DNA of 64,000 nucleotides from Gekko japonicus. Its lineage: Eukaryota. The position numbers and the translations under genes are program-made. This document shows positions 1 to 59,380 of the stretch, one piece after another. The DNA lies in NCBI RefSeq assembly GCF_001447785.1, contig NW_015169194.1, positions 730,854 through 794,853 of the forward strand. The letters run 5' to 3'. How positions within the stretch are numbered: position 1 is the first letter of the stretch; each line of letters opens with the position of its first letter. Below the pieces are notes generated by a model that ran no database searches, was not told the origin of the DNA, and was given only the letters and a program-made list of their open reading frames with translations.

Positions 1-3000
1 ATAACTTGTCAACAGGACACATCGGTCCAAATACCACAACAAGACTCCTCTGACTTCATAGGACTCAAATACGGAGGCATCTGAGGCTCATACCTCTCCT
101 GACCATAAATCCCCCAACCAGGATGTCGCTGAGGACTTACCCGTATCCCCATCTGGCAACCTTATGTCATACACAGATTTGGTCAAAACAATGGCCCACT
201 CTTTAGGCCTCTCTGTTGTCCAGCAACATCCGTAGGCAACAGAAGCGGTTTATGATATAGTTCAGCTTGATACCTCTTCCACCTTGGCATTGCCTATGTC
301 TTCAGTTTTTCTGCAAACGGCGAAGACACCATGGCTAAAACCTCCGTCTGCCCCTGTGTCCACGAGACGACTGGACCACATGTACAGGGTCCAAGAGGCA
401 GATGCCGAATTCCTCTTCTCGCACCCTCAGCCTAACTCGATGGTGATAACGTCTTCCTCCAAATCCAAGAGGACTCATTCCGCACCTTCTGACAAGGAAG
501 GTAAGAAATTAGATGCCTTTGGCAGGCGCTTCTACTCCATGGGAGCGTTAGGAGTCAAGGCCACTAATTACCTGGCCTGTATGAACCGATATCAATATAC
601 TCTCTGGGAACGGTTCTCAGAACTTCTCAGCCACCTCCCAGATGACAGAGTCATACAAAAAGAAGGCATGGTGTTGGCAAAACAACAGCTCAACACTACT
701 AAACATGTCCTCGAGGTGTCTTACAGAACTATGGCCTCTGCAATAGCTCTCAGAAGACATTCCTGGCTCCGCAACACTAATCTGCCAATAGATACCAGAT
801 CTTATGTGGAAGACCTTACCTTCGATGGCCTGGGGCTTTTCAATGCCACTACGGATTCTACTCTACAAGAGTTAGATAAAAGCATAAAGGCATCTCAAGC
901 TCTAGGAGTCTCATCCTCTGCAAGACAACCAATACCGTCCACGCACCTGGTCGAGGTCCTGGCAGAGGCGTACCCCAACTCATCAGTCTCCAGACACACG
1001 ATGGAGAACAAGACGGGTGGCCAAAAGCCCACCTTCCAGAAACCAAAATTCGGTTCCGGACAACAAGCTTCCCGCACCAAACAATCCAAACCCTCCAAAC
1101 AGGTATATGACACCTAAGAAGATTGCTAATATGAATAGTAATATGTCAAACAAATGCTGGAAATGTAAAAAAGCAGAGGGCTCATTTTATCACATGTGGT
1201 GGACTTGTGAAAAAGCAAAAAAATACTGGGCTGAGATACATGCAGAAATGGAAAAAAATGTAAAATGTAAATTTAAAAAGGAACCGGAGATACTGCTTTT
1301 GTGGCTGAAAATGGAGGGAGTAAATATAGCAATTAGGACATTGATGTGGTATATGATCACAACGGCTAGAATATGATCACAACGGCTAGCTTTGCATTGC
1401 CAAAAACATTTTCCTCATGGCCACTCACATTCCCGGACACATGAACGTGCAGGCAGACCATCTAAGTCGAGCAGGACTCAGCCTTCACGAGTGGGGGATG
1501 AACCCAACATCCCTCCTCCCACTCTTCCACATGTGGGGAGCTCCCCAAGTCGACATCTTTGCCACCAGAAACAACAAAAGGTGTCCTCTGTTCTGCTGTT
1601 GAGGAGGCAGGGATCCACAATCTCTGGGAGATGGTCTCCTTTACCCTTGGTCCACGGGACTTCTTTACCTGTTCCCTCCCTTACCTCTGCTTCTGAGAGT
1701 GGTCTGCAAACTACTCAGAGATGCCGCGGATTGCATCTTACTAACACCATGGTGGCCGAGACAACCTTGGTTTTCAACAGTCCTTGAGCTATCACAAGGA
1801 ATATACCATCAATTCCCTCTGGCTCAGGACCTTCTCCTCCTCCCCGACTCCCCTCTTCTCCATCACAACATACCACAGTTGAAACTGACGGCATGGAGAA
1901 TAACATCACCGGCTTCTCCGCCCACGTAGCGAATGTCCTGTGGAATTCAAGGAAGCCTACTATGCGGAGGTCCTACGATTATAAATGGTGAAGGTTCTGT
2001 TCTTCCCTAGGTGATGATGCCCCTCGAGCCACCTCAGTGGGTCTCGAAAGAGTTTTTCGATTCCTGACTCGGGACTTTCCCATTCATCGTTGAGAGTTTA
2101 TTTGGCCGCTCTTTCGGCCTACCATGTACCAGTTGACGGATGTACTTTTGTTTTCACATCCAATTGCAAAACGTTTTTTAAAAGGTTTATTGCATCTCTA
2201 CCCTCCTGTCAAAACTCCAGTCGCTCCCTGGGACCTTCCTCTAGTTCTCCGCCAGCTCACGAGGAAGCCCTTTGAGCCGCTTGCAACATGCGACCTCAAA
2301 CTTCTAGCATGGAAAACGGCCTTTTTAATTGCCATTACCTTGGCTAGACGAATGGGAGAAATATTAGCTTTCCGGCATGATACCCCTTACCTGTCCTTTC
2401 TGCCAGACGGAGTCCGCCTCGTCCCGGACATCTCCTTCCTGCCGAAGGTAGTGTCAGAGTTCCACCTGCAGGTGGAGGTCTTCCTCCCTGACTTCTTCCC
2501 AAATCCAACATCAGCGGAGAACAAATTATTATACACTTTAGATGTGAAGCGGGCTCTCCTGTTCTACCTCAATAGAACGCACCCAACTAGACGAGACTCA
2601 CAACTATTTGTCTCATATGCTTCACCAAGGCTGGGTACTCGCATCACGGCTCAGCGCCTGTCAAAGTGGATTGTAGGTCTGATCCATCTATGTTACCTAC
2701 TCGGTAAACAGCCATTACCTGTCCCTATCAGAGCTCATTCTACCAGGGCTGTCGCGACTTCCACTGCCTTCCTCCAGGGAGTGCCCTTGCCAGACATTTG
2801 TAAAGCCCCTACGTGGGCCACGCCTAATACCTTCATCAGACACTACGCCTTCGACGTCCGTACGAACACCAGTACCAGCATGGGACATCACATTCTATCT
2901 TCGGCTACGCGGTAAAAAACCTGCCAGCACCCTTCTCCAGGTAGGCTACTGTTCGCTAATCTCCCATGGGTGTGAAGCACAGAGACCATGTCGAAGATAA

Positions 3001-3328
3001 GCAGGTTGCTTACCAGTAACTGGTGATCTTTGAGTGGTCATCTGTGCATTCACACCATCCGCCCTCCTTTCCCGCTGCTGTCAGCTTCTACATTTTTAAT
3101 ACGGGTTGATTTGCGGCGGTTTGAAGGAACTGGTGGGATGTCTGCGCCCACCCCCACTGGGCATGCGCAGTGGGGTTCCTGGGCATGCCCGAGGGACTTG
3201 GTGCGAAAATCCATTAAAAGAGCTTGCTACAGCACTGATCGATCCAGCGCGTGCGCACTGAATCCCATTGGTGTGAATGCACAGATGACCACTCGAAGAT
3301 CACCAGTTACTGGTAAGCAACCTGCTTT
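1..3328 (+). mobile_element. DIRS1-like retrotransposon A (degenerate, 5' end outside window, RT deleted)
   Basis: gag-like ORF 284-1117; RNase H end (HIPGHMNVQADHLSR); methyltransferase-like segment (VDIFAT, TPWWPRQPWF); tyrosine recombinase 2124-2915 (RAHSTRA, FIRHY); 2999-3057 is the reverse complement of terminal 3269-3327. Confidence 0.9.
1102..1390 (+). mobile_element. L1 ORF2 C-terminal Cys-rich (zinc-knuckle) fragment inside DIRS A
   Basis: YMTPKK...KCWKCKKAEGSFYHMWWTCEKAKKYW; 20-bp tandem duplication at the right junction. Confidence 0.8.
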
Positions 3329-3350
3329 TGTCAGTGAAAGTAGGGTTCTT

Positions 3351-4033
3351 TTTTTTTTATGGCCCCCGTAGGGGATTTTTTATTTGCATTTACTAAAAAC
3401 TACAACAAAATTAGGGAGGGAATCTACACACTATAGGAGAAAGAAAAGAAAACCCACTAAAAACCCAAGGGTTGGAGGTCACATACAGCTTGTAAAAAAT
3501 TTGCTTAACAATAATAAAAAGCTTTCTTTAACATTGAGAGTGATCAATCATCATCATAGCTTGTAAAAACATCCCAACAAATCTGACTATATGAAGAGTA
3601 GTCCAGGAGAATTGCTATTTAACTTAGACACAAATTACAGAGAACAATGGCATCTCATTTAACCATTATTTTCCCCTCCACCATTAAAAGCAAATTAACA
3701 ATAAGTCTCCCTCAGTAGATATTACACAATCTCATTTTCTGTTCCATTGCTGTTTCCCTCTTTCTTCTTCCCTGTGGCACCATCTGGCCATCTCAAAACA
3801 AAGTCCCTTCTCCTTTTTCAAGGACTGTTACGCTTAAATTCTTGCCTTCAATCATAGGGGTTGTTCCAATTTGCTTTTCACTGCCCGACTTGAAGAGAGT
3901 CTCGTCACCTTATTGCCTAGCAGACTTAATCAGGATATAACCATGGAGGATACTCCTTCGCTTTAAGCCTCGCTTATGGTCTGCATACAGGCCCTTCAAA
4001 TTGCAAATGCCCATTTGACTCTCCTCTTCGATC
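3351..4033 (-). mobile_element. 5'-truncated polyadenylated non-LTR insertion (L1-mobilised type)
   Basis: 14-bp TSD aaagtagggttctt (3337-3350 / 4034-4047); poly-T at left; AATAAA on minus strand. Confidence 0.85.
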
Positions 4034-5147: not shown

Positions 5148-6228
5148 CAGGGGTCTTTTGGGGCCAGAGCGCGCCAGAGTGCCACTCCGGGAGCCCAGGA
5201 GCTGGCAAAATGGCGATGGCAGCAAGCCCCGCCCCCAGCTCTTCCCGCGACAGCCTGTCGCCGGCCTTCCGGGGCCCACACTTTAGCGCTGCGGCCCCGG
5301 GGACGCCTGTCGCTGCCTTCTCGGGGCCCGCGCTGGAGCACTGCTGCCCAGAGGAGGCAAGGAGTGCCCTCCCCGCGACCTCCCTGGGCCAGCGCCGGAG
5401 CGCTGCTGCCCAGAGGAGGCCAGGAGAGCCCCCCGCCTCCCTGGGCCAGTGCCGAAGCGCTGCTGCCCAGAGGACGCCAGGAGAGCCCCCCCCGCTGCTT
5501 CCCTGGGTCAGCGCCGGAGCGCTGCTGCCCAGAGGAGGCCAGGAGAGCCCCCCGCCTCCCTGGGCCAGTGCCGAAGCGCTGCTGCCCAGAGGACGCCAGG
5601 AGAGCCCCCCCCGCTGCTTCCCTGGGTCAGCGCCGGAGCGCTGCTGCCCAGAGGAGGCCAGGAGAGCCCCCCGCCTCCCTGGGCCAGTGCCGAAGCGCTG
5701 CTGCCCAGAGGACGCCAGGAGAGCCCCCCCCGCTGCTTCCCTGGGTCAGCGCCGGAGCGCTGCTGCCCAGAGGAGGCCAGGAGAGCCCCCCGCCTCCCTG
5801 GGCCAGTGCCGAAGCGCTGCTGCCCAGAGGACGCCAGGAGAGCCCCCCCCGCTGCTTCCCTGGGTCAGCGCCGGAGCGCTGCTGCCCAGAGGAGGCCAGG
5901 AGAGCCCCCCGCCTCCCTTTCCTTCCTTCGTTCCTTCTCTCTACTCTTTCTCTCTCTCTTTCCTTCCTTCTTTCCTCCTCCTGCGGCCCAACTCTAGTGA
6001 GAACTCTAGTTCTTTCTTCGCTTCCCCCCCCCGTCTCCCCCTGCTAGGGAAGGGGAGGCTTTTGAAGATGCCTTCCCCCCCCTTTTGCTTCCCCTTCTGA
6101 CATAACTTCTGGTGATGTCAGGGGGCGTTGCATATGCTAATGAGCTATTATGTTAATAGCCTAGTAGCTCGTTAGCATACTATATGCTAATGAGCTCCTG
6201 CAGCTCTTTTTCTACGAAAAGACCTCTG
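5148..6228. mobile_element. Non-autonomous hAT element
   Basis: TIRs caggggtctttt / aaaagacctctg; perfect 8-bp TSD aagaaggg (5140-5147, 6229-6236). Confidence 0.9.
5330..5917. repeat. GC-rich minisatellite, 119-bp dimer (57+62), about 4.5 near-identical copies
   Basis: cgctgctgcccagaggaggcc recurs at 5401, 5520, 5639, 5758, 5877. Confidence 0.95.
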
Positions 6229-15464: not shown

Positions 15465-16530
15465 CTTCCTTAGTTCCTGTTCTCATTCCCCCTTATGTTA
15501 ACTGCTTAGTGTCTAATGATATGTTATGGTTTCTCTGTGCCCTTCCTAGGTTCATGCAGTTAGACATGTGTTGCAAGCTTGAGCTGGAAACTCAGTTTTC
15601 CCAGGTGTGTGGTGACCTTGTTTGGATCAGGTCCATGGGGCATGGGGAGAAGTAGCTTATGCTTTCTTCCCATGCCATTTTCTGAATCTAGAACTGTCAT
15701 CAATGGGGACTCTGCATGTATCGATAGGGTTCAACTAAGTTTCCCCAGTGGGGCACATATTGACCCACTAGAGCTGTTTCCCAGTATGGCGGAGAGTATG
15801 AAGGGCTTTCTCTTTGGATTCTGTGATCCCAGTCCAAATTGGATCCACACACACCTGGGAATTGAATTCCCAACATGGAACTCCAGGCACGTATTAGATT
15901 GCACAGATCCGAGGAGGACCCGGGGAGAGCATAATACGTAGTAGTGATTTCCACTGTGCTTTGTCACCTGGATTGGACCGATACACCAGTCCCTGACTCC
16001 GGTTGCCTTCTAGCTGTTACATAGCTTGTTTCTTTTGGTCCTCCTATTGACATCTTTTCCAGAATGACTGTGCTTGCTGTAATGATGTTGTCTGCGTATC
16101 TGACTTGGGCAAGATCCTATTGTGGGAGTTCCCGCTGTCTCCATTGAGAGCTCCCTACTCTTGTCCTTCAGCCCCGAGCCTTCCCTGCCTTAAGCCAGCC
16201 TCAGAAATGTGGGTAGAGGGAACCTGGGGGCATGCTCCATCTAGTCCCTCTGTCCAAGTGGTTCTGCAGCACATACTCAGCAGACTCTACACATGCTCTC
16301 CTCCCCAGCCAGTGTTCAAGGTTCTTCTTTTACCCTACCAGCCTCCCGTTATGCCCTCCTTCCCCTTCCTTCCCTCTCCCCAATTGCAGCCTGTGCAAGC
16401 CCATTAAAGCCCATATGCTCATTCCATATACCTTCTCCCTGTCACCTCTTAGGGAGACCAATAATACAGCACCAGGCCTATCTGAAGCATTATCTGTCTT
16501 ACTAGATAAAGAGGCAATTGTGGAGGTTCC

Positions 16531-17061
16531 TGTTGAGGTTAACTGGTGTGGTTAGTCCACTCACCATTAGTTAGCAGAGTACTTAAATAAAGCTACAAAT
16601 GCAGGAGTGTCATTTTACCAGGTTACTCAGCTTACAAAACTACATGGAGCCACAGCTTACAAAGCTACACAGAGCCACCTTGCAAGTTTAGAAGAGAAAT
16701 ACTTCTCTCTTTATTTGAGAAGTACACTTTGGATAGGAAAGAGCAGAGATTGATAGATTACTAACTTACTAGCTAAAGGATGGAAGCAGATGGCGAGACG
16801 CCCATCTGCCTCATGGTGCCAAGAGAGGACCGCATATCCTTCTCTTGGTGTGTGCAGATAGAGAGCACGTCTTCATCCAGAATGAGAGAGAAGGAGAAGG
16901 GGAAATTGATCCCTGAGAGCACAATCTGCATATCAAAGAGGACAGTGGCAGAAGAGTAGATACAGGAAGAAAGGTCAGTTTGCCTATCTAGCTATCTAGT
17001 CTCTCTTGTCACTCAGTCCGGAGGTCTGAGACAGGGGACATCGCATCTGGAACTTTCAACA
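16531..17061 (-). mobile_element. Solo LTR (Copia-like termini) in DIRS B RT
   Basis: TGTTGA...TCAACA; 5-bp TSD gttcc; removal rejoins RT (EVP|ESQ). Confidence 0.85.
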
Positions 17062-17489
17062 GTTCCAGAATCTCAGATGCGTGATGGTTTCTTTTCAGGC
17101 ATGTTCCTAGTAGATATAAAATATGGTGTGGTCAGACCAATTTTATATCTCAGGAATCTGAATGTCTTTATGTCTGTTTAAAAGTTTCGCATATTATCCT
17201 TTCCTTCAGTTTTACAATTATTAAAGTCTAACTTCTGGTTTATTGTTATTGACTTGAAAGATGCCTACTTTCACATCTGTATTTGTGCTCAACATAGTAA
17301 ATTCCTTCATTTTTCATGTGGGAAACAGGTGTTTCAGTATACTGTTTCACCCGTTGGTTTAGCCACTGCATCAAGGGTATTTATGAAGTGCCTAGCTCTT
17401 GTGGTTGCTTATTTTATTTATTTATTTATTACATTAGATTTGCTAGGCTGTCCTTACCTACAGGTGGAGCTGACCATTGCATGTATCAC

Positions 17490-19368
17490 GGAGCTTCCGG
17501 TTTACGACGACACGCTGGCGGATGCATCTCCCGGACCTCCTGGGGATGTGATCTGCGCACCAGCGGATAGGAGGGGGTGTGACGGGTCACCACCACCCTG
17601 GAGCCTTGGCAAAAGGCTCCTAGCCATGGGGCCTTTGAGGGGCAACCTCTTCACCAGCATGATGCTGGGGAATTGAGGTGCTCCTCTGCCCCGACGGTCC
17701 TGCCGCTGAGTGTCTGTATGGATCTAGAGCCGCTGACCGGGACAAGCGTCGGAGATCGAGCATTTTAAACATGTTCTGAGTGAGGTCGTATGACCAACAA
17801 TGAACAGTGAGTCGGGTTAAAGCGAAGACGGGAATATATAAAGAAAGCTCCCCCCAGGAACGACGAGAGAAGCGAGCGGGGGAGGGGCCCCTCCCATACA
17901 CATGAACTAAACAACTGAATACTTAGAGGGGAGTGGAAGAAAAAGCGTTGAAATCTGTTTTGAGAGACTTACCAGAGTGCGGATAAGCGTATGGGCGTAT
18001 TTCAGAGACTTTAGCAAGTTTTCATAAAAGTAAACAATCCATAAAGATGGCGGGGAAGAGGGCAGAGAAAGACAAACCAGTAAAAGTGAAACCAGCCAGC
18101 TTGAGCCCTCGACCGGAAGAGACCACCGAGCTTTCCAAAATGTTGGCAGAGCCCTTGCGCCCTCTGCTGGATCAGATGACTAACATTGAACAACAGCTGA
18201 CAAATCTAAACCAGAATCTAGCAACTCAGCAGCTCCAACTGACTGAGACTTTAAAAATAACGGAGCAAATGGCTGAGAAGGTGAAGGAAATGGACGCCAA
18301 TGCCAAAAAAGTTAAGAAAAAGGTGCAAAAGCTGGAAAAGAAACAAGTCTCTGAAGAATCACAACTTTTACAGCTGCAAATGGAGAAAGCAAATTTCGTC
18401 CTATGGTTTCAAGGGGTCCCAGAATTAAAAGACGAGAATCTAAAGCAACTCTTGAGTGAAGCATTAGCCCCAGTTACGGATTTGAAAGCGGAATATCTTG
18501 TAAACAAAATGGATGTGGTCTACAGAGCCTATTCCGTGTACATCAAGAAGAATAATCTGCCTGGGGAGATAGTGGTCAAATTCTCGAAGAGGCACGTGAG
18601 GGATTTAATCCTGAAAGCAACTACAGGAACACCCTTGAAAATCGGGGACAACATTATCAGGATTTTAAAAGACATCCCATTTGAAATAAGGCAAAAGAGG
18701 AAGAAATACAAAGACTTAATCCTTTTTCTACAAACAAATAGCATTGCCTACAGATGGCAAATTCCAGAAGACGTCAGTTTTAAAATACACAATAAAAATG
18801 AAAAGATTGACTCTGTCTTTAAAGCACGTGAGTTCCTGAGAGTGCAGCTGGGAGAGAAAGCCGAGGACGGCAAGGAAGAAGATGACAGCAAATTCAGTGG
18901 CGAATTGGACTTGGGGTCTTCCGATGAGGACTGTTTCCAATAAGGGAGCGGGTGCACCCAAACGTGCATATCAATTGAGGATTAGAAAAGATAAAACAAA
19001 GTGAAGGCTGAAGGACTCTGAATTGTGCCTTAAAATTCTGTTTTTATTATGGATGATGCTCTTGGGTTTCTCTTTGAGCAGTTATATTTATGGATAAAAA
19101 GATAAATAATTTAGCATAACCGACTATGTTCAAAGTAATACTAGCAATTTAAGATTAATACCTAAATAAGCTGTTGTTATGATCTCCTATTCTTGAGGTT
19201 TTAGTTATTAGTGGTTTTCTTTCCTTTCTCCCTAGATGTAGTTCCCCCTTCCTATTTTTTCATTGTAATTTTTAGTTTATTAAAAAATGCAATAAATGCC
19301 CCTCTGTTTGTAGTTTATTAAAAAAATGTAATAACTGCCCCTCTGCCCCCCCCAAAAAAAACAACAAA
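17490..19368 (+). mobile_element. Full-length L1-ORF1-only (HAL1-like) retroelement
   Basis: TSD attgcatgtatcac (17476-17489 / 19373-19386); 5' GGAGCTTCCGGTTT; CpG-rich 5'UTR; one ORF; AATAAA and A-rich tail; no ORF2. Confidence 0.85.
18047..18943 (+). CDS. L1 ORF1p-like protein (coiled coil, RRM, CTD), intact 298 aa
   Basis: Heptad-rich N-terminus; FQGVPE, P.EIVVKF, DIPFEIRQKRKKY, YRWQIPE motifs; aagATGg start. Confidence 0.85.
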   Translation: MAGKRAEKDKPVKVKPASLSPRPEETTELSKMLAEPLRPLLDQMTNIEQQLTNLNQNLATQQLQLTETLKITEQMAEKVKEMDANAKKVKKKVQKLEKKQVSEESQLLQLQMEKANFVLWFQGVPELKDENLKQLLSEALAPVTDLKAEYLVNKMDVVYRAYSVYIKKNNLPGEIVVKFSKRHVRDLILKATTGTPLKIGDNIIRILKDIPFEIRQKRKKYKDLILFLQTNSIAYRWQIPEDVSFKIHNKNEKIDSVFKAREFLRVQLGEKAEDGKEEDDSKFSGELDLGSSDEDCFQ

Positions 19369-22067
19369 GACAATTGCATGTATCACTGTGGCTAGGTCGG
19401 GGCGAGACAGGTAGGTAGCCAGTTGCCTAACCTGGTACAGTTGGAGAAATGCCAGCCTGGCAACTTTTGCACCCTGGGTCGCCATAGACAAGAAGGAGCC
19501 CAAAGTCATGCCCAGGCTCTTGATGGTCTGTGCCAGTGATAGAGGCACACCCTCAAGAGTTGGGCGTTGACAACCCAACCGAGGCGCTCCTCCACCCAGC
19601 CAACAGGACCTTCATCTTACCTGGATTCAGTTTCAGCTGACTTTGTTTTAACCATCTCACCACAGCATCCAAACTCTCAGCTAAGTTCCTGGGAATGACA
19701 GTTGGCTGGCCGCCTATCAACAGAAATAGATGGGTGTCATCAACATATTGGTATTCTTGAGTATGTAGTCACTCTGACTACAGATGCTTCACTTATTGGT
19801 TGGGGTGCTCATTGTGAAGCACTTTCTGCCCAAGTGACATGGTCTCATCAGGAAAAACAGCTACATATTAATCTTTTAGCGTTACAGGCCGTTTGCCATG
19901 CCCTTAGCTGTTTTGCAGATATCCTTTGGAACTGCTCCATCTTAATCCAGACAGACAATATGGTTACGATGTTCTACTTGAACAAGCAAGGGGGAATGGG
20001 TTCCAGAATGTTAGGTGGCCGCAATGGTGTGGTCCATGGCACTGAAGCTCAGCACTTCCCTTCATGTTATCCATATTTCCCTTCATGTTATCCATATTTT
20101 GGGGATTATAAAGAAGTAAGCAGACAAAGCAAGACCAGGACACACTCTCATGAGTGGTCCATCAAGGACACTTACCTAGATCCAGTTTTTGCCCTATCTG
20201 GGCTCCTGGATGTGGACTTGTTTGTCACAGAGAAGAGCACAAAGGCTGCCAGGTTTTGTTCCTGGGCTGGGATAGGCCCAGCTTCTCTCAGGGATGCCTT
20301 TCAGATTTCTTGGAAAGGGGCCCTTTTTTATGCATTTACCCCTTTTCTGCTGCTCATCAGAGTCATAGAGAGGGTCAGGAGGGAAGGGAGGGATATGATT
20401 CTTATAGCTACTTTTTGGCCCCACCAGATTTGGTTTCCTCCCCTAATAAACGTGCCCCAGGGTCGGCATGTCCCTCTTCCTAAACAGCCAGGTTCTACAT
20501 CATGATGTAGGTTGCCTCAATTTGATGGCATGGAGTCTCCAGATAGGGATCTAACCTTCCCACAAGAGGTTAGTGAGGTTCTCCTGCACTCACGCAAACC
20601 TGCTACTAGGAGGTCTTATATGTACAAATGGATCATTTTCCCCTTTGGAGTAATTTTCCCCTTACAAGCTATATTAGATTACCTACTAGGTTTGAGAACA
20701 AAAGGTTTGACCTTTTTGTCTCTTAAAGTGCACCTTGCAGCCATCTTCTGTTACTTCTTTGGAACTGAAGAGGAATCAGTTTTTTCTCACCATTTATATA
20801 AAAGGTTTCTCAAAGGCTTATTCAACCTTTTCTCTTCCCAGGACCCACTGGTTTCACAGTGGTCTCTTTTGGTAGTTTTGGGCCACCTAATGTTGAAACC
20901 ATTTGGCCCTTGGCTGTGTGTTCATTGGCAGAACTTTCCATGAAAGTCTGTTTCTTGGTGGCCATTACTTTGTTTAGGAGAGTTAGTGAACTAGCGGCCT
21001 TAAGGGTGGACACCCCCCCCTGTTTTTAAAAGTTTGCCCTGAGATGGTAGTTCTCAGACCCAGCCTTCATTTTCTCCTGAAGGCTGTCTCTAGATTTCAC
21101 TTATCCCAAGAAATGATTCTACCTGTGTTCTTCCCTTTGCCAAGTTCTGAAAATGAGAAAGTGTTGCATTCATTAGATATTAGAAGGCCTTTATTATTGT
21201 ACTTTAAAAAGGACATTGGAGTTTCATAGAGACAAAGCACTTTTTGTGTGTTTTGCTGGCCCTAATACGGGTAAAAGTGCTTCACCCCAGACCCTGTCCC
21301 ATTGGATTGTTTCTGCCATCAGAGAATACTGTGCCCAAGCTAAATTGCCTTGTCCCTTAAACATACATGCCCATTCGACCAGGGCAATGGCTTCCTCTGC
21401 AGCGTTCTTCGATGGAGTGCTGTTCACCGAAATCTGTCAGGCCGTCACGTGGTCTTTAGTGGACACCTTCATGTGCCACTATGCCTTGGACCTGCTGGCG
21501 AGACAAGAAGCACGAGTGGGCAAACCAGTTCTTCATTCTCTGTTCAAGTGAAGAGAGCATTTCCCACCACCTGGTGAATAGCTTGTTAGAATTCCCATGT
21601 GGGACTGCAAGAAGATCGATAATGAAAACAGGATTGCACTTACCTATAACTGTTGTTCATTGAGTATCTTCTGTGCAGGCACACATACCCTCCCTCCCTC
21701 CCGCCCGCCCTGTTGTATGCTTTCTTGCTTCAGCGGCAAAAGAGGAACTGAGGGTGGGGGCACTGCAACTCCAGAGCACGTGATCCCTGGGTGGGAAAAA
21801 GAGCTTCTGGCTCCGGCATACAGTGCCACCTGGAGGCTTTTAGCTATAAAACCTCTCTGTGGGCAGGCCTGCTCATGCACAGTCTCCATGTGTGCCTGCA
21901 CAGAAAATACACGATGAACAACAGTTACAGGTAAGTGCAAACCTGTTTTCTTTGCAAAGAATGAAATGTCATCTGGTACTTAGGATCTGAAATCTCTGAT
22001 ACGGGAATAAATATAAAATATTTTTAAAATGAACAAAATTATTTCTAACCCAAAACATTTCTCCTAG

Positions 22068-48284: not shown

Positions 48285-50320
48285 AAATAATATCTTGTAT
48301 TAAGCTATAAAAATTTTCCTGATTTTGGTTGGGTGCATATAGATTTACGATCAACAGTTTTCTATTTCTTCGGATTAATGATATTGCCACTACTCTTCCA
48401 TCTGTAGATGCATAAATAAGTTCAGGGTTTAAATCTTCTTTAATATATATGGCAACACCTCTTTTTTTTTCTTTCACCTGCTGCAAAAAATACAACTCCT
48501 GTTTTCTTAGAATTCAGATATTTTACGTCTTTCTTCCTTATATGAGTCTCTTGTATACACTATTTCTGCTTTTATTTAATTGATGGAAAATCCTTTTTAG
48601 TTTCTGAGAACTGTTTAAGCCATTCACATTAACCGATAAGAAAATCCTTTTTCGTTTCTAAGGACTGTTTAAGCCATTCACATTAACCAATAAAATGTCC
48701 AGCTTATTATTTCTTTCCATTTTTGTCGGTGAGTCTATTTATTCTTGCTCTATGACGGGTAATTACTTGTAAGGAGGTAATGTTTGCTCTTCTTTGTCCT
48801 CTGTTCTCTCCCTTCTTTTTCTCTTCCTCATCTTTATTATCTTTAAGATCTTCCTCTGTTTCACTTTCTTCTTCATCTCTTTCTTCTTCACCTTCGCCTT
48901 CCCATCCTAACTTCTCTCCATATCGCTCTAGAACATTCTTAGCCTTGAATATAGAGCCCAATTTGTGTCTTTTCCCTTCATGGTTAAACAATATGCCTTC
49001 GGGAAGGAGCCATCTATAAGAGATTCCATTAGCTGTCAGCAGATCCGTTATTATATAGTATGGTTGTCTTTTTTCCCTAACTCTCCACGGTACTTCTTTT
49101 AGAATCTCTTTTTCATTAATCTTGACTGTAGTTTCATTAGAAGCCTTTAAAATTTTATCTCGCATTAGTCTAGTGAATTTAATATGTACCTCCCTCGGGA
49201 TTTTATGTCTTCGTGCATAAGCTGTATTTTTTCTATAGATCACATCTATTTCCTTTTCCACCTCTTCATATGTATCTAGCTTTAATTGTTCAGATAGGTT
49301 TTCAATTAATTCTTGTTTTAGGCTTTTTTCCAAACTTTCTGGTACATTCTGACATTTAATTAGTAAAGCCGCTTTGTCTAATTCCAAATTCATCAGAGTT
49401 TCCTCTATTTTATCTGTTTTCATTTTTAACTCATATACTTGGTCTACTTGGAGTTTCTCTTCAGTATTATTACAATCTTTAGCTAATTTTAATATCTCCT
49501 GTTTATTTTCATTAATTTGTTTTTTTATTTCTTCAGTGTCTATTTTCATCTGTTGTGATATTTCTGCAATATTTTTTGGATTGGTTCTAGTTCTTGTTTT
49601 ATCATTTCTCCCATCTTTATTTATTTGATTTCTAATTTTATCTGTATGGGTTCTATTTCTTAAGTAATTCTGGTAATGTGGAATCTATTATATGCTTAGT
49701 GGTTTGTTCTACTATTTCTTTTATTAAGATTTTTAAATCTTTATTTTGCATTTGCCCTGCACTCATTGTGCTGAGTTTAAGTTGTGTCTGGATGCTAGTT
49801 TGCCCTGGGGAGGTTAAAGATCCTTTCCTACTTCCACTACCCCCTGTAGCCATCTACAGTTTATTATTAGTATTGAAGCCTCCTTCACTTAAGTTAAGAG
49901 TTTATACTATAAATAGCTTCACCTCCAGTCTTTTTAGAATAAGTGTTATATAGGTGTTCTATACAGTTCCGTTGCTTAGTTTTTCTCTTCCTGTATTTTT
50001 TCCTCCTGCTCTGTTATATCTGCTCCGTTGCTCCGTTGCCTCTCTGTTCTGCTGTAATCTCCTATCTTTCTGCCTTTTCCTCTGGGTCCTAGATTCCACC
50101 GCCTCTTATCTCTGCTGTTCTCTCTCTACTGCACAATCGCAATTCCTCTCAGCCTTTTCTCACAAGCCACAGCCTCCTCTCGAACGCCGCTCCCCAGACC
50201 TCGCACTCCAAAACATAGAACGAAAGAGGACAGAAAACAAACACAGCTATGAGGTATTTATATCTTGCAGATTCAGTTTTGGCTATTTAAAGTGTTCTGC
50301 TGGTCTAATAACCCCTTTAA
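48285..50320 (-). mobile_element. 3'-truncated L1: 5'UTR, disrupted ORF1, start of ORF2 endonuclease
   Basis: ORF1 49853-48707 (QNVPE, PREVHIKF, YRWLLPEG); EN NVNGLN (duplicated), KKRGVAIYI, IVNLYAPN. Confidence 0.88.
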
Positions 50321-50329
50321 CCTGCCCCG

Positions 50330-51030
50330 ATTCCCCCCCAACTTCTATCTTTTGCCTTCGCTAATGGCCACCTTAAAGGGAACCTTTCCCTTTCTTTCCT
50401 CTTTGTCTTATTTCATGCGGGCTTAGTTTAGTTTTACCTTCTAGGTCCTATTTTTTCAATGCCTTTCAAATACACACATCAACTATAAAATGGTTATTTT
50501 TTGTGGTTCTATAACGTTGAGAGACTCCAATTGGTTCTGTAGGCTCCGTCTTGTGCTCGGCGTCTGTTGGGCGTTCCTATTAGCCTTCCACTTCAAGGCG
50601 TCCCATAGGGTCTCAAGACGGTTGCCAGCCTGTCTTGAATATGGGAAAAAGCCTCTTGCTTTCGGTTTCCCCCTCCGAGAGAAACCAGGTGGGGGGAGAT
50701 GGAGAACCCCCTAAAAGGCTAAAAGAAATAAAGTAGGCAAGCAGCTGCTGCTACGAACGTCCACTCTCGGCAAAACCAGAACCGGATCGCCCCCTTTTTA
50801 GATTCTTGATGTCTTTTTAAAAACTGCTTCGCTTTCGTAAAAGAGTCAATATTTTCTTTTTTGCCTTTGTAGTTGAACATCAAGACTTCAGGTATGAATG
50901 AATGAATTTTATTGTTACGGCGCTTAGCCAGCAATAAGACTTCAGGTAGTATCCATCAGTAGGTAGTGGTATTTTCCCGTAGGAAGGTGGTTAAATTCTT
51001 GTATTGTTTTCTCTTCTTCCTTATCTCAAA
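50330..51030 (-). repeat. Direct duplicate of 51581-52230 (ORF1 C-terminus plus downstream sequence)
   Basis: Near-identical ~650 bp; carries an extra 41-bp insert 50895-50935 with TSD aagacttcaggta. Confidence 0.9.
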
Positions 51031-51580: not shown

Positions 51581-53234
51581 ATTCCCCCCCAACTTCTATC
51601 TTTTGCCTTCGCTAATGGCCACCTTAAAGGGAACCTTTCCCTTTCTTTCCCCTTTGTCTTATTTCATGCGGGCTTAGTTTAGTTTTACCTTCTAGGTCCT
51701 ATTTTTTCAATGCCTTTCAAATACAAACATCAACTATACTTTGGTTATTTTTTGTGGTTCTATAATGTTGAGAGACTCCAATTGGTTCTGTAGGCGCCGT
51801 CTTGTGCTCGGCGTCTGTCAGGCATTCTTATTAGCCTTCCACTTCAAGGCATCCCATAGGGTCTCAAGACGGTTGCCAGCCTGTCTTGAATATGGGGGAA
51901 AAGCCTCTTGCTTTCGGTTTCCCCCTCTGAGGGAAACCAGGTGGGGGGGAAATGGAGAACCCCCTAAAAGGTTAAAAGAAATAAAGTAGGCGAGCAGCTG
52001 CTGCTACGAACGTCCACTCTTGGCGAAACCAGAACCGGATCGCCCCCTTTTTAGGTTCTTGATGTCTTTTTAAAAACTGCTTCGCTTTCGTAAAAGAGTC
52101 AATCTTTTCTTTTTTGCCTTTGTAGTTGAACATCAAGACTTCAGGTAGTATCCATCAGTAGGCAGTGGTATTTTCCCGTAGGAAGGTGGTTAAATTCTTG
52201 TATTGTTTTCTCTTCTTCCTTATCTCAAATGGAATGTCTTTTAGTATTCTGATGTCTTCTTTGATTTTCAGTGTAGTCCCAGATGTTGCTTTCAATATTG
52301 CATCTCTTATAGATCTCTTAGAGAATCTGACGTATATTTCACCAGGCAGGTTTTTTTTCTTAATAAATTCTGAATATTTGGTAGATCATATCCATTTCAC
52401 TTTGTAATACTTCTGCCTTAATGCCTGTTGCTGGTGCAAGCGCTTCACTGAGAATTTCTTTCAGATTCTCAGATTTGTCTTCTGGCACTCTTTGAAATCC
52501 CAACACATATGAAGATTTTCCTATTTGTAGCTGCAAAAGTTGAGTTTTATCTGAAGATCTTTCTTTTTCCAGAACTTCCAGTCTTTGGTCAATTGCTTTG
52601 GTCTTGTTTTCAACTGCCTCTGTTGTTTTGTTGGGTTTTTTAGCTGTTTTTGTAAAGACTCCAAGGTCTTGCTGATGTTAGTCATCTGAGCCACCAGAGG
52701 TTGCAATGCAGTATCCAGCATGCCTGCAAAGTCAAAGTTCACTTTCATTTTAGAGACTGGACGTGTTGAGCTGGCAGTTCCTTGTTGAAGTTTCACTTTC
52801 ACCGCCATCTTTCAGCCCGATAAGACATTGTTTATGTTTTGTAAAAGTTTGTTTAATTCTTTAGAAGTTTATTTGCTTTGATGCCTTAACAGTCTGGCAT
52901 TGTACTGATTTAATTCCGCCATCCACTCAAACACCGCCACTTTCTGTCCCCTCTAGTGCATTTAAATCTTTGTTGTTTTCAAGGGGTGGGTAGCTCCCCC
53001 CCCCCCCCCCCCTTCGTTTGTGNNNNNNNNNNNNNNNNNNNNNNNNNNNNNNNNNNNNNNNNNNNNNNNNNNNNNNNNNNNNNNNNNGAGAGTCACCCCC
53101 AGCACCCCAGGCTGAGATCCCTCTACAAGGGCTCTGGGGGGAGTCCAGAACCATCCAGACCCTCTCCCTGTTGCTGTGTCACGGCTGCTTCGGAGGAGCG
53201 TGCCTGCCATCAACACGCCAAAACCAGAAGTCCC
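51581..53234 (-). mobile_element. Degenerate L1-ORF1 element related to 17490
   Basis: 5' GGGACTTCTGGTTT; ORF1 from 52808 (L.PL..QMTNI, DIPFEIRKKRK); no endonuclease after the stop. Confidence 0.75.
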
Positions 53235-53760
53235 AGCCTGGCATGTTTAGGGCCCAAAATAGCCAGACAGTTTTGGGATCCTGACCGCAGTGCTCTTTGG
53301 GGAACATGTGGGAAAAGGTGGTCCCTCAGGTAGGTAGGCCCCTGACCATAAAGGACTTTAAAGGTAAGCACCAACACCTTGAAGCAAATCCAGTATGCTA
53401 TAGGCAGCCAGTGCAGTGCTTTTAGCACAGGCTGAATGTGCTCCCACATAGGAGACCCAACAACAGCCTGACAGCTGCATTCTGCACCAGCTGAAGCCTC
53501 CAGATTTGGTACAAGGGCAGCCCCACGTAGAGAGTGTTACAGTAGTCTAACCTCGAGGTGACCATTGCATGGATCACTGTCACCAAGTCGTCGTGTTTGA
53601 GGAAGGGAACCAGCTGCTTGATCAGCCAAAGATGATACAAAGCTTACTTAGCAGTAGATGCTACCTGGGCCTCCATGGTTAGGGAGGCATCTAAGAGCAC
53701 TCCCAAGCTCCTAACCTCCGATGCCGGCACCAATGGTACACCGTTGAATGGTAAACCCAG
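53235..53760 (-). mobile_element. L2 RT C-terminal fragment
   Basis: VIHAMVTSRLDYCN...LQLVQNAA...LHWLPI. Confidence 0.88.
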
Positions 53761-57348: not shown

Positions 57349-58351
57349 TATTGTGACTTTTTGAATGAAAAGAAACCCCATTCTAAACAGTTATATAACT
57401 CTTATACTGCTGATATGATCCAAAGTACTATGTCCTTTCTATTCAAAATCTCTCCTGACTATTTCTGAATTTTACACCTTTTATCCTCATTTTGAATGAA
57501 GCTTTGGTCTGAATAGCAGGAATTAAGCACAATCAACATATTCTTCTTTGCATTCCAGGTATGATATACAGGCTTGTGTCAGAGAAACTTGGACTAGCCG
57601 AAGTTTCCTCAGTATCATATCTATGTAAATACAATTACTGCTGTCAAATGTACGCTGTGGTCCAAACTACTGCATGGCCCAGCTATATTTGAATCTAACA
57701 CCAGTCTCTCTTAGAAATATAATTTGAGGGAAAGGAGAGGGGATTCTCTTCCAGCCTTGAGAAGCATGTCTTGAAAACCAGGAAATGGTTAAGTCAGTTC
57801 TTCTTTCTCCACCTTGGTTTCTTATCAGCTGATATAGCTATTATACTCCTCTGGGAAGTGTCTCCTGCAACCTGCTAAAAGAGGTAATGAGACTAGTTGA
57901 AATTTACAGGAGCAGCTCTACAACTAGGGAGTTGAACGATGTGGAGCTAAAGCAGCCCCAAGTCCTTACTCTTGCGGGGAATGAAGATGCCTTTTAGCCC
58001 ACCCACAGTGCTCGGCTGAGTGCCGAAGTTGCGCCCAAGCACCTGGTATTCCGTTCAGGCACAAACCACCCATTGTGCTGCTGCCTTCTTCAGCAGGNNN
58101 NNNNNNNNNNNNNNNNNNNNNNNNNNNNNNNNNNNNNNNNNNNNNNNNNNNNNNNNNNNNNNNNNNNNNNNNNNNNNNNNNNNNNNNNNNNNNNNNNNNN
58201 NNNNNNNNNNNNNNNNNNNNNNNNNNNNNNNNNNNNNNNNNNNNNNNNNNNNNNNNNNNNNNNNNNNNNNNNNNNNNNNNNNNNNNNNNNNNNNNNNNNN
58301 NNNNNNNNNNNNNNNNNNNNNNNNNNNNNNNNNNNNNNNNNNNNNNNNNNN

Positions 58352-59380
58352 TGACAGCCCCTGGGAGTAACAGAAGTGTTCAGGAACTGGGATGACAGGC
58401 CACAGAGTGGAATGACGGCCCCAGGGTGGAGCAGGAGTGTTCAGAAACTGGAATGACAGGGCCAAGAGTGGAATGACAGCTCCAGGGTGGAGCAGGAGTG
58501 TTCTGGGACTGGGATGACAGGCCACAGAGTGGAATGAAAGCCCCAGGGTGGAGCAGGAGTGTTCAGGAACTGGGATGACAGGCCACGGAGTGGAATGACA
58601 GCCCCAGGTTGGAGTAGGAGTGTTCATGGACTGGGATGACAGGGCCAAGAGTGGAATGATGGCCCCACGGTGGAGCAGGAGTGTTCTGGAACTGGGATGA
58701 TTGGCCATGGAGTGGAATGACAGTTCCAGGGTGTACCAGGAGTGTTCTGGTACTGGAATGACACAGCTACGGAGTGGAATGATGGCCCCAGGGTAGAGCA
58801 GCAGTGTTGTGGGACTGGGATGACCAGCCACGGAGTGGAATGGCAGCCCCAGGTTGTACCAGGAGTGTTCAGGGACTGGAATGACAGGCCACGAGTGGAA
58901 TGATGGCCCCAGGGTGGAGCAGCAGTGTTCTGGGACTGGAATGACATGGCCAAGAGTCGAATGACAGCCCCAGGGTGTACCAGGAGTGTTCTGGGACTGG
59001 AATGACAGGGCCAAGAGTGGGATGACATCCCCAGGGAGTACCAGGAGTGTTCAGGAACTGGGATGACAGGCCACGGAGTGGAATGACAGCCCCAGGGTGG
59101 AGCAGGAGTGTTCTGGGACTGGAATGACAGGGCAAGGAGTCAAATGACAGCCCAAAAAAAAAAATAACAGGGCGAAGAGTGAAATGACAGCCCCAGGGTG
59201 TACCAGCAGTGTTCTGGGACTGGAATGACAGGGCCAAGAGTGGAATGACAGCCACAGGGTGGAGCAGGAGTATTCAGGGACTGGGATGACAGGCCACGGA
59301 GGGGAATGACAGCCCCAGGGTGGAGCAGCAGTGTTCTGGAACTGGAATGACAGGGCCCAGAGTGGAATGACAGCCCCAGT
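58352..59380. repeat. ~60/61-bp GGAATGACAG-rich satellite, abuts assembly gap
   Basis: About 17 diverged units of ...gagtggaatgacagccccagggtggagcaggagtgtt... Confidence 0.93.

What the first reader, a model, noticed from the sequence alone, without database searches (positions are those of the whole stretch)
17490..19368. Complete ORF1-only L1-derived retroelement ('half-L1') with an intact ORF in a lizard
Seen: one 14-bp TSD (18 bp with one mismatch) brackets a 557-nt CpG-rich 5'UTR starting GGAGCTTCCGG, an uninterrupted 298-aa L1 ORF1p, ~400 nt of 3'UTR with a duplicated poly(A)-signal block, and an A-tail. No ORF2 trace is present, so it probably retrotransposed as an ORF1-only unit. Known: HAL1 elements are described from mammals. 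Inference: an independently derived squamate HAL1-like family that makes its own ORF1p and borrows ORF2p in trans. I am not aware of it being described in squamates but cannot check.
Basis: partly seen in the sequence, partly recalled or inferred. Interest (0 to 1): 0.75.

Follow-up and report, generated by a model that had tools for sequence, protein, structure and literature searches.

The report
Lizard ORF1-only half-L1 retrotransposon family
This 1.9-kb stretch is one decayed copy of a highly repeated jumping gene, likely from a lizard, that carries only the first (RNA-binding) gene of LINE-1 and likely borrows the copying enzyme from complete LINE-1 elements, a way of life that the papers found describe for LINE-1 only in mammals.

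Summary
The anatomy is real: 14-bp exact target-site duplication (17/18 with one mismatch), lizard clade-1-type L1 5' end, L1 ORF1p (fold match to human ORF1p, E 9e-11), ~350-nt AT-rich 3' end, A-tail, no ORF2 trace, inserted in an L2 fragment. It is not a one-off: contigs from two DNA runs pile about 1,000-fold above the flanks, evenly over 5'UTR, ORF1 and 3'UTR; diverged relatives pass from the ORF1 stop into a homologous UTR; ORF1 shows purifying selection (dN/dS 0.14-0.26 against a second window copy).

Correction: this copy is not intact. A frame break near 18933 removes the family's conserved basic C-terminus (family stop 19002-19004, about 319 aa), and two conserved residues are lost.

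Best reading: a HAL1-like, ORF1-only non-autonomous L1 family of a squamate, likely mobilised in trans by ORF2p. Independent origin is inferred; the partner L1 was not found; no genome, Repbase or Dfam was available. Nine paper searches showed no reptile HAL1. The scan has noted ORF1-only LINEs before on other DNA (fungi, a likely mammal). New member of a known kind.

The parts
17472..17489 (+). 5' copy of the target-site duplication (14 bp exact, 17/18 with one mismatch); part of the host L2 fragment
   Evidence: single-copy state seen in an L2 paralogue at 53552-53747
17490..18046 (+). 5'UTR, 557 nt, CpG-enriched; 5' end resembles the lizard clade-1 L1 consensus; internal promoter inferred
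   Evidence: (majority letters at 17505 and 17507 give ATGGCG)
18047..18943 (+). Open part of L1 ORF1 (298 aa): coiled coil about 38-115, RRM about 118-208, CTD about 212-267; ends early because of a frame break near 18933; W120 and D242 replace conserved R and G
18934..19004 (+). Out-of-frame remainder of the family ORF1 with the YxLRxR motif and the family stop TGA at 19002-19004 (family protein about 319 aa)
   Evidence: (tables 4, 7)
19005..19353 (+). 3'UTR, about 350 nt, 32% GC, pyrimidine tracts, ATTAAA 19279, AATAAA 19291, ATTAAA 19317; no ORF2 similarity
19269..19345 (+). 39-nt tandem duplication of the polyadenylation-signal block; read depth falls about 20-fold in this bin, so probably rare in the family
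19354..19368 (+). A-rich tail (13 A of 15 nt)
19369..19386 (+). 3' copy of the target-site duplication
19387..19760 (-). Host: L2-type RT fragment (continues at 17401-17489 with a TAAA-repeat tail), itself inside a DIRS-like element; L2 and DIRS labels rest on recalled motifs
52050..53234 (-). Copy C: decayed relative (68% nt in the ORF1 core, similar 5' end and short 5'UTR); its 3' part is replaced by the 5' end of another L1, so its ORF1-only state is unknown
3351..4033 (-). Copy D: 683-nt 5'-truncated insertion with its own 14-bp TSD and A-tail; last 270-290 nt homologous to the element's 3'UTR; no ORF1 or ORF2 similarity
48290..50794 (-). Element B: autonomous-type L1 fragment (941-nt 5'UTR, ORF1 33% identical to the element's, ORF2 endonuclease-like start overlapping the ORF1 end); comparator, not shown to be the partner

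Best explanation
The 1.9-kb element is one decayed copy of a highly repeated, ORF1-only LINE-1 family, likely of a squamate, that likely arose by loss of ORF2 from a lizard clade-1 L1 and likely spreads by making its own ORF1p while borrowing ORF2p from complete L1 elements. Shown: ends, TSD, ORF1p identity, lack of ORF2, high and even repetition, diverged subfamilies with the same junction, selection on ORF1, decay of this copy. Inferred: transcription from the 5'UTR, binding of ORF1p to its own RNA in cis, recruitment of ORF2p through the A-tail or the L1-type 3' end, target-primed reverse transcription. That ORF1p is needed in cis is inferred from the selection on ORF1 and from the argument made for guinea-pig HAL1.
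For: Anatomy and TSD; empty-site analogue in an L2 paralogue, E 7e-14 across the junction. ORF1p: profile E 7e-16, model pLDDT 85.6, Foldseek E 9.4e-11 to 2ykp. Repetition: 18,537 and 18,789 contigs laid in two DNA runs, the largest class 90-95% alike; summed depth 920 and 1,141 times that of five low flank bins; means 5'UTR / ORF1 / 3'UTR 304k / 391k / 440k (X1) and 272k / 256k / 477k (X2), without the steep 3' excess expected if 6-kb L1s shared this tail. The bin that spans the family stop is the deepest of 30 in both DNA runs; loose ends on both sides of 18999-19031, in 3 of 4 runs, show a diverged subfamily with an in-register ORF1 end and then UTR-like sequence, not an ORF2 start. Selection: dN/dS 0.257 (bootstrap 0.145-0.389) over 244 codons and 0.143 over 172 core codons against copy C; hand count of 10 of 16 ORF1 loose-end rows: of 96 codons 27 identical, 32 synonymous-only, 37 amino-acid-changing, no stop. 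The post-stop region (348 nt, 31.9% GC) fits lizard clade-1 3'UTRs (345 +/- 118 nt, 33.1% GC), not clade-2 spacers (46% GC) (PMC5381506). A second TSD-flanked insertion, D, ends at a homologous 3' end.
Against: No genome was held, so no second full-length TSD-flanked copy was seen whole; no listed contig spans the element. Summed contig depth is, as the tool warns, no copy number. Only 24 of 2,508 loose-end rows and 15 of 46 joints were shown, so a minority running into ORF2 is not excluded. Copy C lacks its 3' end, so its dN/dS may partly reflect an autonomous ancestor. The Pfam test for ORF2 is insensitive: it missed the endonuclease-like start of B, although it found a zf-RVT fragment. The target site does not fit the recalled L1 endonuclease consensus well (that of D does). 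No partner L1 with this 3' end was identified. RNA reads lie on both strands about equally, so transcription from the element's own promoter is not shown.
Confidence: 0.8

Rival explanations
1. The copies are prematurely polyadenylated products of an autonomous L1 whose ORF1-ORF2 spacer contains a poly(A) signal; the master elements encode ORF2.
For: Lizard clade-2 L1s have spacers of 270-384 nt (PMC5381506), close to the 348 nt seen here; the lay output beyond 19290 is thin and its loose-end table was cut; no genome to check.
Against: GC 31.9% against 46% for such spacers; 5' end and ORF1 group with clade-1-type elements, which have spacers of 0-110 nt; comparator B runs straight from ORF1 into an ORF2-like start; depth falls about 20-fold after 19291 and no ORF2-like loose end is among the 24 best-supported rows; insertion D, 59-70% alike, ends at the homologous place.
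Confidence: 0.1
2. It is an ORF1-only family, but ORF1 is a passenger: the RNA is mobilised like a long SINE, and the selection seen on ORF1 dates from autonomous ancestors, each subfamily being a separate recent deletion.
For: This copy's ORF1 is decayed (6 of 8 top-listed differences from the majority are non-synonymous; frame break); the structure of copy C is unknown; D carries a related 3' end without ORF1.
Against: The diverged subfamily that shows the ORF1-to-UTR junction keeps the frame and the YxLRxR end with synonymous changes; decay after insertion is expected of any copy; separate deletions would not be expected to share one junction.
Confidence: 0.07
3. It is a domesticated ORF1 gene or a single processed copy of one, like L1TD1 or Lyosin exon L.
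For: ORF1 domestication is known in reptiles (Lyosin, PMC12129022, passages); family sequence is present in RNA runs.
Against: About 1,000-fold depth over flanks, many variants, TSD and A-tail inside another transposon, frame break and loss of conserved residues in this copy.
Confidence: 0.02

Closest known systems
HAL1 (half-L1) of mammals (Smit 1999; Bao and Jurka 2010, not held, known here through passages of PMC5753468, PMC5322556, PMC3627910, PMC5786205)
   Same: L1-derived, ORF1 only, poly(A)-type tail, TSDs, multi-copy, ORF1 coding capacity kept over long times; dependence on ORF2p in trans is assumed for both.
   Different: Host is a squamate by protein relatives; ORF1p groups with gecko and agamid proteins and with a lizard autonomous-type L1 in the window, and is only about 20% identical to human ORF1p; 5' end is of the lizard clade-1 type. 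So it is a parallel origin (inferred), not a descendant of a mammalian HAL1.
Lizard clade-1 L1 (Anolis L1_AC families; PMC5381506, sections 7, 9, 10, 11, 13 read)
   Same: 5' motif CTTCCGG...ATGGCG, ORF1 length near 960 nt, AT-rich 3'UTR of about 350 nt with pyrimidine tracts and AATAAA.
   Different: 1.9 kb instead of 6.2-6.7 kb; no ORF2; 5'UTR 557 nt instead of 792-1,465; apparently far more abundant than the small copy numbers that the abstract gives for non-mammalian L1 families.
HeT-A (Jockey clade) and Ag-Sponge (CR1 clade), ORF1-present bipartite non-autonomous LINEs (PMC5786205, passage)
   Same: Keep ORF1 and both ends, lack reverse transcriptase.
   Different: Other LINE clades and insect hosts; no telomere role is suggested here.
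Lyosin exon L and L1TD1, domesticated L1 ORF1 (PMC12129022, PMC4161310, passages)
   Same: ORF1p sequence kept under selection without ORF2.
   Different: Those are fixed host genes or exons; this is a dispersed repeat with TSD and tail, and this copy is decayed.

Membership tests
HAL1-type non-autonomous L1 | Encodes an L1-clade ORF1p (coiled coil, RRM, CTD) | tested here: met
   Pfam Transposase_22 in 22 of 95 aligned relatives but not in this copy
HAL1-type non-autonomous L1 | No ORF2 between ORF1 and the tail | tested here: met
   Only about 350 nt after the stop; no tblastn or Pfam hit; the Pfam control was only partly sensitive
HAL1-type non-autonomous L1 | Poly(A)-type tail and TSD | tested here: met
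HAL1-type non-autonomous L1 | Amplified as an ORF1-only unit in many copies | tested here: met
   Indirect: even, about 1,000-fold depth and a shared junction in a diverged subfamily; whole copies with TSDs were not counted
HAL1-type non-autonomous L1 | ORF1 kept under purifying selection in the ORF1-only state | tested here: inconclusive
   dN/dS 0.14-0.26 against copy C, whose 3' end is lost; synonymous excess in loose ends; no branch-wise test
HAL1-type non-autonomous L1 | Mobilised in trans by L1 ORF2p | not testable with these tools
   Inferred from tail and TSD; target site fits the recalled endonuclease consensus poorly; partner not found
Named mammalian HAL1 families | Descent from a mammalian L1 ORF1 | tested here: not met
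   Named nearest relatives are squamate proteins; about 20% identity to human ORF1p; no mammalian HAL1 sequence was in the tree
Autonomous L1 | ORF2 with endonuclease and reverse transcriptase | tested here: not met
Catalogued Repbase/Dfam family | Match to a library consensus | not testable with these tools

The most novel reading that the evidence does not exclude
An old ORF1-only L1 lineage, born independently in squamates, has persisted through many subfamilies with its ORF1 under selection (synonymous sites near saturation between two copies in one window) and has reached hundreds to thousands of copies, outnumbering its helper L1s in a group where L1 families are held to be rare. It would be the first non-mammalian vertebrate HAL1 and would show that a cis-made ORF1p is a general requirement for long L1 parasites.
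Probability: 0.4. Interest if true: 0.62.

Novelty: new member of a known kind. Interest (0 to 1): 0.45.

Why it matters
HAL1-type elements are the natural experiment on why L1 RNA needs its own ORF1p when short SINEs do not. In the papers seen they are reported for L1 only in mammals. A high-copy, multi-subfamily squamate case gives an independent origin with a very different ORF1p, usable for selection tests and for a trans-complementation assay. It also warns that abundant 'L1' in squamate repeat annotations may be non-autonomous. The kind of element is known, so the gain is in range and in testability, not in a new mechanism.

Tried and rejected
Whole-genome copy count: no genome held. Word-index protein searches: nothing for the single protein, only P0001 and P0011 for a 4-sequence alignment; the exact protein is not in the collection. 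Pfam gives no significant family for this copy. Idea that D holds an ORF1 C-terminus: rejected, profile score below zero (the shuffle control in that script failed and was not rerun). No RNA holder listed by the run index; this is no evidence on expression. Raw RNA runs X21 and X22 gave 5,857 and 324 laid reads, mostly under 95% alike, on both strands, 60-64% running on unlike: family sequence is in RNA, but promoter use and tissue are unknown. Empty-site joint in DNA runs: none among the 15 of 46 joints shown, so polymorphism is undecided. Rfam over 16000-21000: one chance-level hit. Empty site in DIRS: rejected, the immediate host is an L2 fragment. No complex prediction was run. Bao and Jurka 2010 is not held. 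Sequence look-up among earlier findings gave nothing.

Full report
1. Observation. The element at 17490-19368 is bracketed by a direct repeat at 17472-17489 and 19369-19386, 17 of 18 identical and 14 exact. Among 3,000 random pairs of window segments at similar spacing, 2,999 had a longest exact match of 11 or less and one had 14, probably the real site drawn again. The repeat belongs to the host: the flanks translate to an RT fragment of L2 type (label from recalled motifs), and a paralogue at 53552-53747 matches across the junction with one copy of the repeat (nhmmer E 7e-14). The L2 piece lies in a DIRS-like element (tblastx to a second such element at 1486-2858; label recalled). The 5'UTR is 557 nt, 53% GC, CpG observed/expected 0.76 against 0.31 for the window. 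A 39-nt block is duplicated at 19269-19345, and an A-rich tail follows at 19354-19368.

2. The protein. The 298-aa frame has no significant Pfam hit and a weak single-sequence hit to human ORF1p (E 0.004). A profile of 95 relatives hits ORF1p at E 7e-16. The AlphaFold2 model (mean pLDDT 85.6) has a long helix, an RRM and a CTD, and its ten best Foldseek matches are human ORF1p (best E 9.4e-11, about 20% identity). The HMMER search found 337 relatives at E up to 0.001, the best at 46% identity. Of 19 relatives looked up, 7 carry names: Gekko japonicus (2), Eublepharis macularius (1), Phrynocephalus forsythii (3 of them) and no other taxon; to be exact the named ones are P0004, P0013, P0030, P0037, P0095 and P0100, six proteins, the rest being unnamed. 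The squamate origin is therefore inferred, not told. In a FastTree tree of 114 core sequences, midpoint-rooted, the protein pairs with P0001/P0151 (0.998) inside a 19-tip clade (0.968) that also holds those six proteins and the ORF1 of element B.

3. The copy is not intact. Contigs of run X2 carry two more nucleotides behind 18933 (depth 348.6 of 556.8; X1 does not show this row), and depth collapses there in both runs (table 4). From the ATG to the TGA at 19002-19004 there are 958 nt, two short of 320 codons. The out-of-frame stretch 18969-19004 reads YQLRIRKDKTK-stop; loose ends before 18999 in runs X2, X21 and X22 read a variant of the same motif in register; the nearest homologue ends in YDLRAR (2 of 115 homologues have YxLR in the last 45 residues, both of that cluster). 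The family protein is thus about 319 aa, and this copy lost its basic end. It also has W120 where 78% of relatives have R and none W, and D242 where 92% have G. Of the 8 top-listed differences from the majority within the open frame, 6 change the amino acid.

4. It is a family. No genome was held. The run index listed 24 runs, all of one coded organism; two DNA runs hold half of the words. Laid at 85% likeness on 16900-20000, X1 and X2 gave 18,537 and 18,789 contigs, the largest class 90-95% alike. Summed depth is 118,000-636,000 in the 17 bins inside the element, against 95-916 in five low flank bins; other flank bins are raised by L2 and DIRS repeats and were left out of the baseline. The ratio is 920 and 1,141. 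The tool warns that this is no copy number, and overlapping short contigs inflate it; around 100 distinct contigs show a variant at single positions, so hundreds to thousands of copies is my inference. The profile is flat: 5'UTR, ORF1 and 3'UTR average 304k, 391k and 440k in X1 and 272k, 256k and 477k in X2. Autonomous 6-kb L1s are mostly 5'-truncated (established knowledge), so a tail shared with them would stand far above ORF1. The bin across the family stop is the deepest of 30 in both DNA runs. A diverged subfamily matches 18999-19031 and differs on both sides: before it an in-frame ORF1 end, after it sequence that aligns by eye to the UTR, not to the ORF2-like start of B. Limits: 24 of 2,508 loose-end rows, 15 of 46 joints and 40 of 708 variant rows were shown, and no listed contig spans the element.

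5. Other copies in the window. C (about 53234-52050, minus) is 68% identical over 487 nt of ORF1, has a similar 5' end and is cut by the 5' end of B. Against C, dN/dS is 0.257 (bootstrap 0.145-0.389, 244 codons) and 0.143 in codons 95-270; the N-terminal 69 codons give 0.73 on a poor alignment. D (4033-3351, minus) has its own 14-bp TSD and A-tail; its end aligns to the element's 3'UTR (score 111 against at most 54 in 100 shuffles; E 1.9e-7, 59% over 288 columns) and it has no ORF1 or ORF2 similarity. B (50794-48290, minus) has a 941-nt 5'UTR, an ORF1 33% identical and an endonuclease-like start overlapping the ORF1 end (motifs recalled, Pfam missed it). A hand count of 10 of the 16 ORF1 loose-end rows (six dropped as short, gapped or duplicate sites; some kept rows overlap) gave, of 96 codons, 27 identical, 32 synonymous-only, 37 amino-acid-changing and no stop.

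6. Which end is it? Boissinot and Sookdeo (PMC5381506; abstract and sections 7, 9, 10, 11, 13 read) give lizard clade-1 L1 a 5' consensus GACTTCCGGTG-N8-ATGGCG, spacers of 0-110 nt and 3'UTRs of 345 +/- 118 nt at 33.1% GC with pyrimidine tracts; clade 2 has spacers of 270-384 nt at 46% GC. The element begins with CTTCCGG, the majority letters at 17505 and 17507 give ATGGCG, and the post-stop region is 348 nt at 31.9% GC. It fits a clade-1 head and ORF1 joined to a clade-1-type 3'UTR. Whether this came by internal deletion or by capture of a tail is open, since no autonomous L1 with this tail was found.

7. Mechanism. Most likely (0.8): master copies are transcribed from the 5'UTR, make ORF1p that coats their own RNA, and take ORF2p from autonomous L1s for target-primed reverse transcription. 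The structure, repetition and selection are shown; transcription, cis binding and the helper are inferred. RNA runs X21 and X22 hold family sequence (5,857 of 16.75 million and 324 of 16.26 million records read) on both strands, which shows neither promoter use nor tissue. The target site fits the recalled L1 endonuclease consensus poorly, that of D well. Rivals: premature polyadenylation of an autonomous L1 (0.10), passenger ORF1 (0.07), domesticated gene (0.02).

8. Literature. Passages of PMC5753468, PMC5322556, PMC3627910, PMC4161310 and PMC4494074 describe or cite HAL1 as an ORF1-only L1 derivative, with mammals as the hosts named. A passage of PMC5786205 groups HAL1 with HeT-A and Ag-Sponge. 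Term searches in PMC5381506, PMC5203782, PMC5381603, PMC6050309, PMC4455052 and PMC12129022 showed no reptile ORF1-only family (passages only, supplements not opened, and their repeat libraries could hold such a family). Nine library searches (listings and abstract starts) gave none either. Bao and Jurka 2010 is not held, subscription journals are mostly missing, and Repbase and Dfam could not be searched, so 'not described in squamates' is likely but unproven. Earlier notes of this scan report ORF1-only LINEs in fungi and in a likely mammal (not checked here); none matched this sequence.

9. Verdict. Observation partly confirmed (intactness wrong); interpretation largely right and now supported at family level. 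It works like HAL1 and meets the structural tests of that kind, but is not a member of a named mammalian family. New member of a known kind, interest 0.45; the bolder reading, an old and abundant squamate HAL1-like lineage, has probability about 0.4 and interest about 0.6.

Noticed in passing
window 50330-51030 and 51581-52229: A 700-bp duplication (88% with gaps) of the end of copy C's ORF1 joined to the 5' end of L1 element B; B seems to have inserted into C at an A-run. The duplication may be real or an assembly artefact.
   Followed up: partly
window 48290-50794 (minus): Autonomous-type L1 fragment with overlapping ORF1 and ORF2-like start, a 54-nt tandem duplication at 48586-48693, cut off at about 48290.
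   Followed up: partly
window 3351-4033 (minus): 5'-truncated TSD-flanked insertion whose first 310 nt (44% GC) match neither ORF1 nor ORF2; it may be the long 3'UTR of the helper L1 or of another ORF1-only lineage.
   Followed up: partly
window 296-3330 and about 16200-21500: Two diverged DIRS-like retrotransposons (36-60% amino-acid identity in RNase H to recombinase regions; label recalled); the first has short inverted repeats at 2999-3057 / 3269-3327 and holds an L1 ORF2 C-terminal fragment at about 1100-1373 (zf-RVT, E 2.8e-4).
   Followed up: partly
window 5262-5918: GC-rich tandem array (119-nt unit, 4.9 copies, 98% matches) inside a 296-codon open frame at 5210-6100.
   Followed up: no
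window 58352-59379: 61-nt minisatellite next to an assembly gap (58098-58351).
   Followed up: no
window 17552-18154, 17896-19104, 17911-18765 (joints): Single contigs show internally deleted family copies, two of the joints in both DNA runs; possible shorter non-coding derivatives.
   Followed up: no
proteins P0004, P0013 (Gekko japonicus), P0100 (Phrynocephalus forsythii): L1 ORF1p-like proteins annotated in public databases as 'apolipoprotein A-IV-like' or 'Myb/SANT-like', probably misannotated transposon ORFs.
   Followed up: no
window 18047-18943, RNA runs X21 and X22: Family reads are about 17 times more frequent per record in X21 than in X22 of the same study; tissue or library cause unknown.
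   Followed up: no
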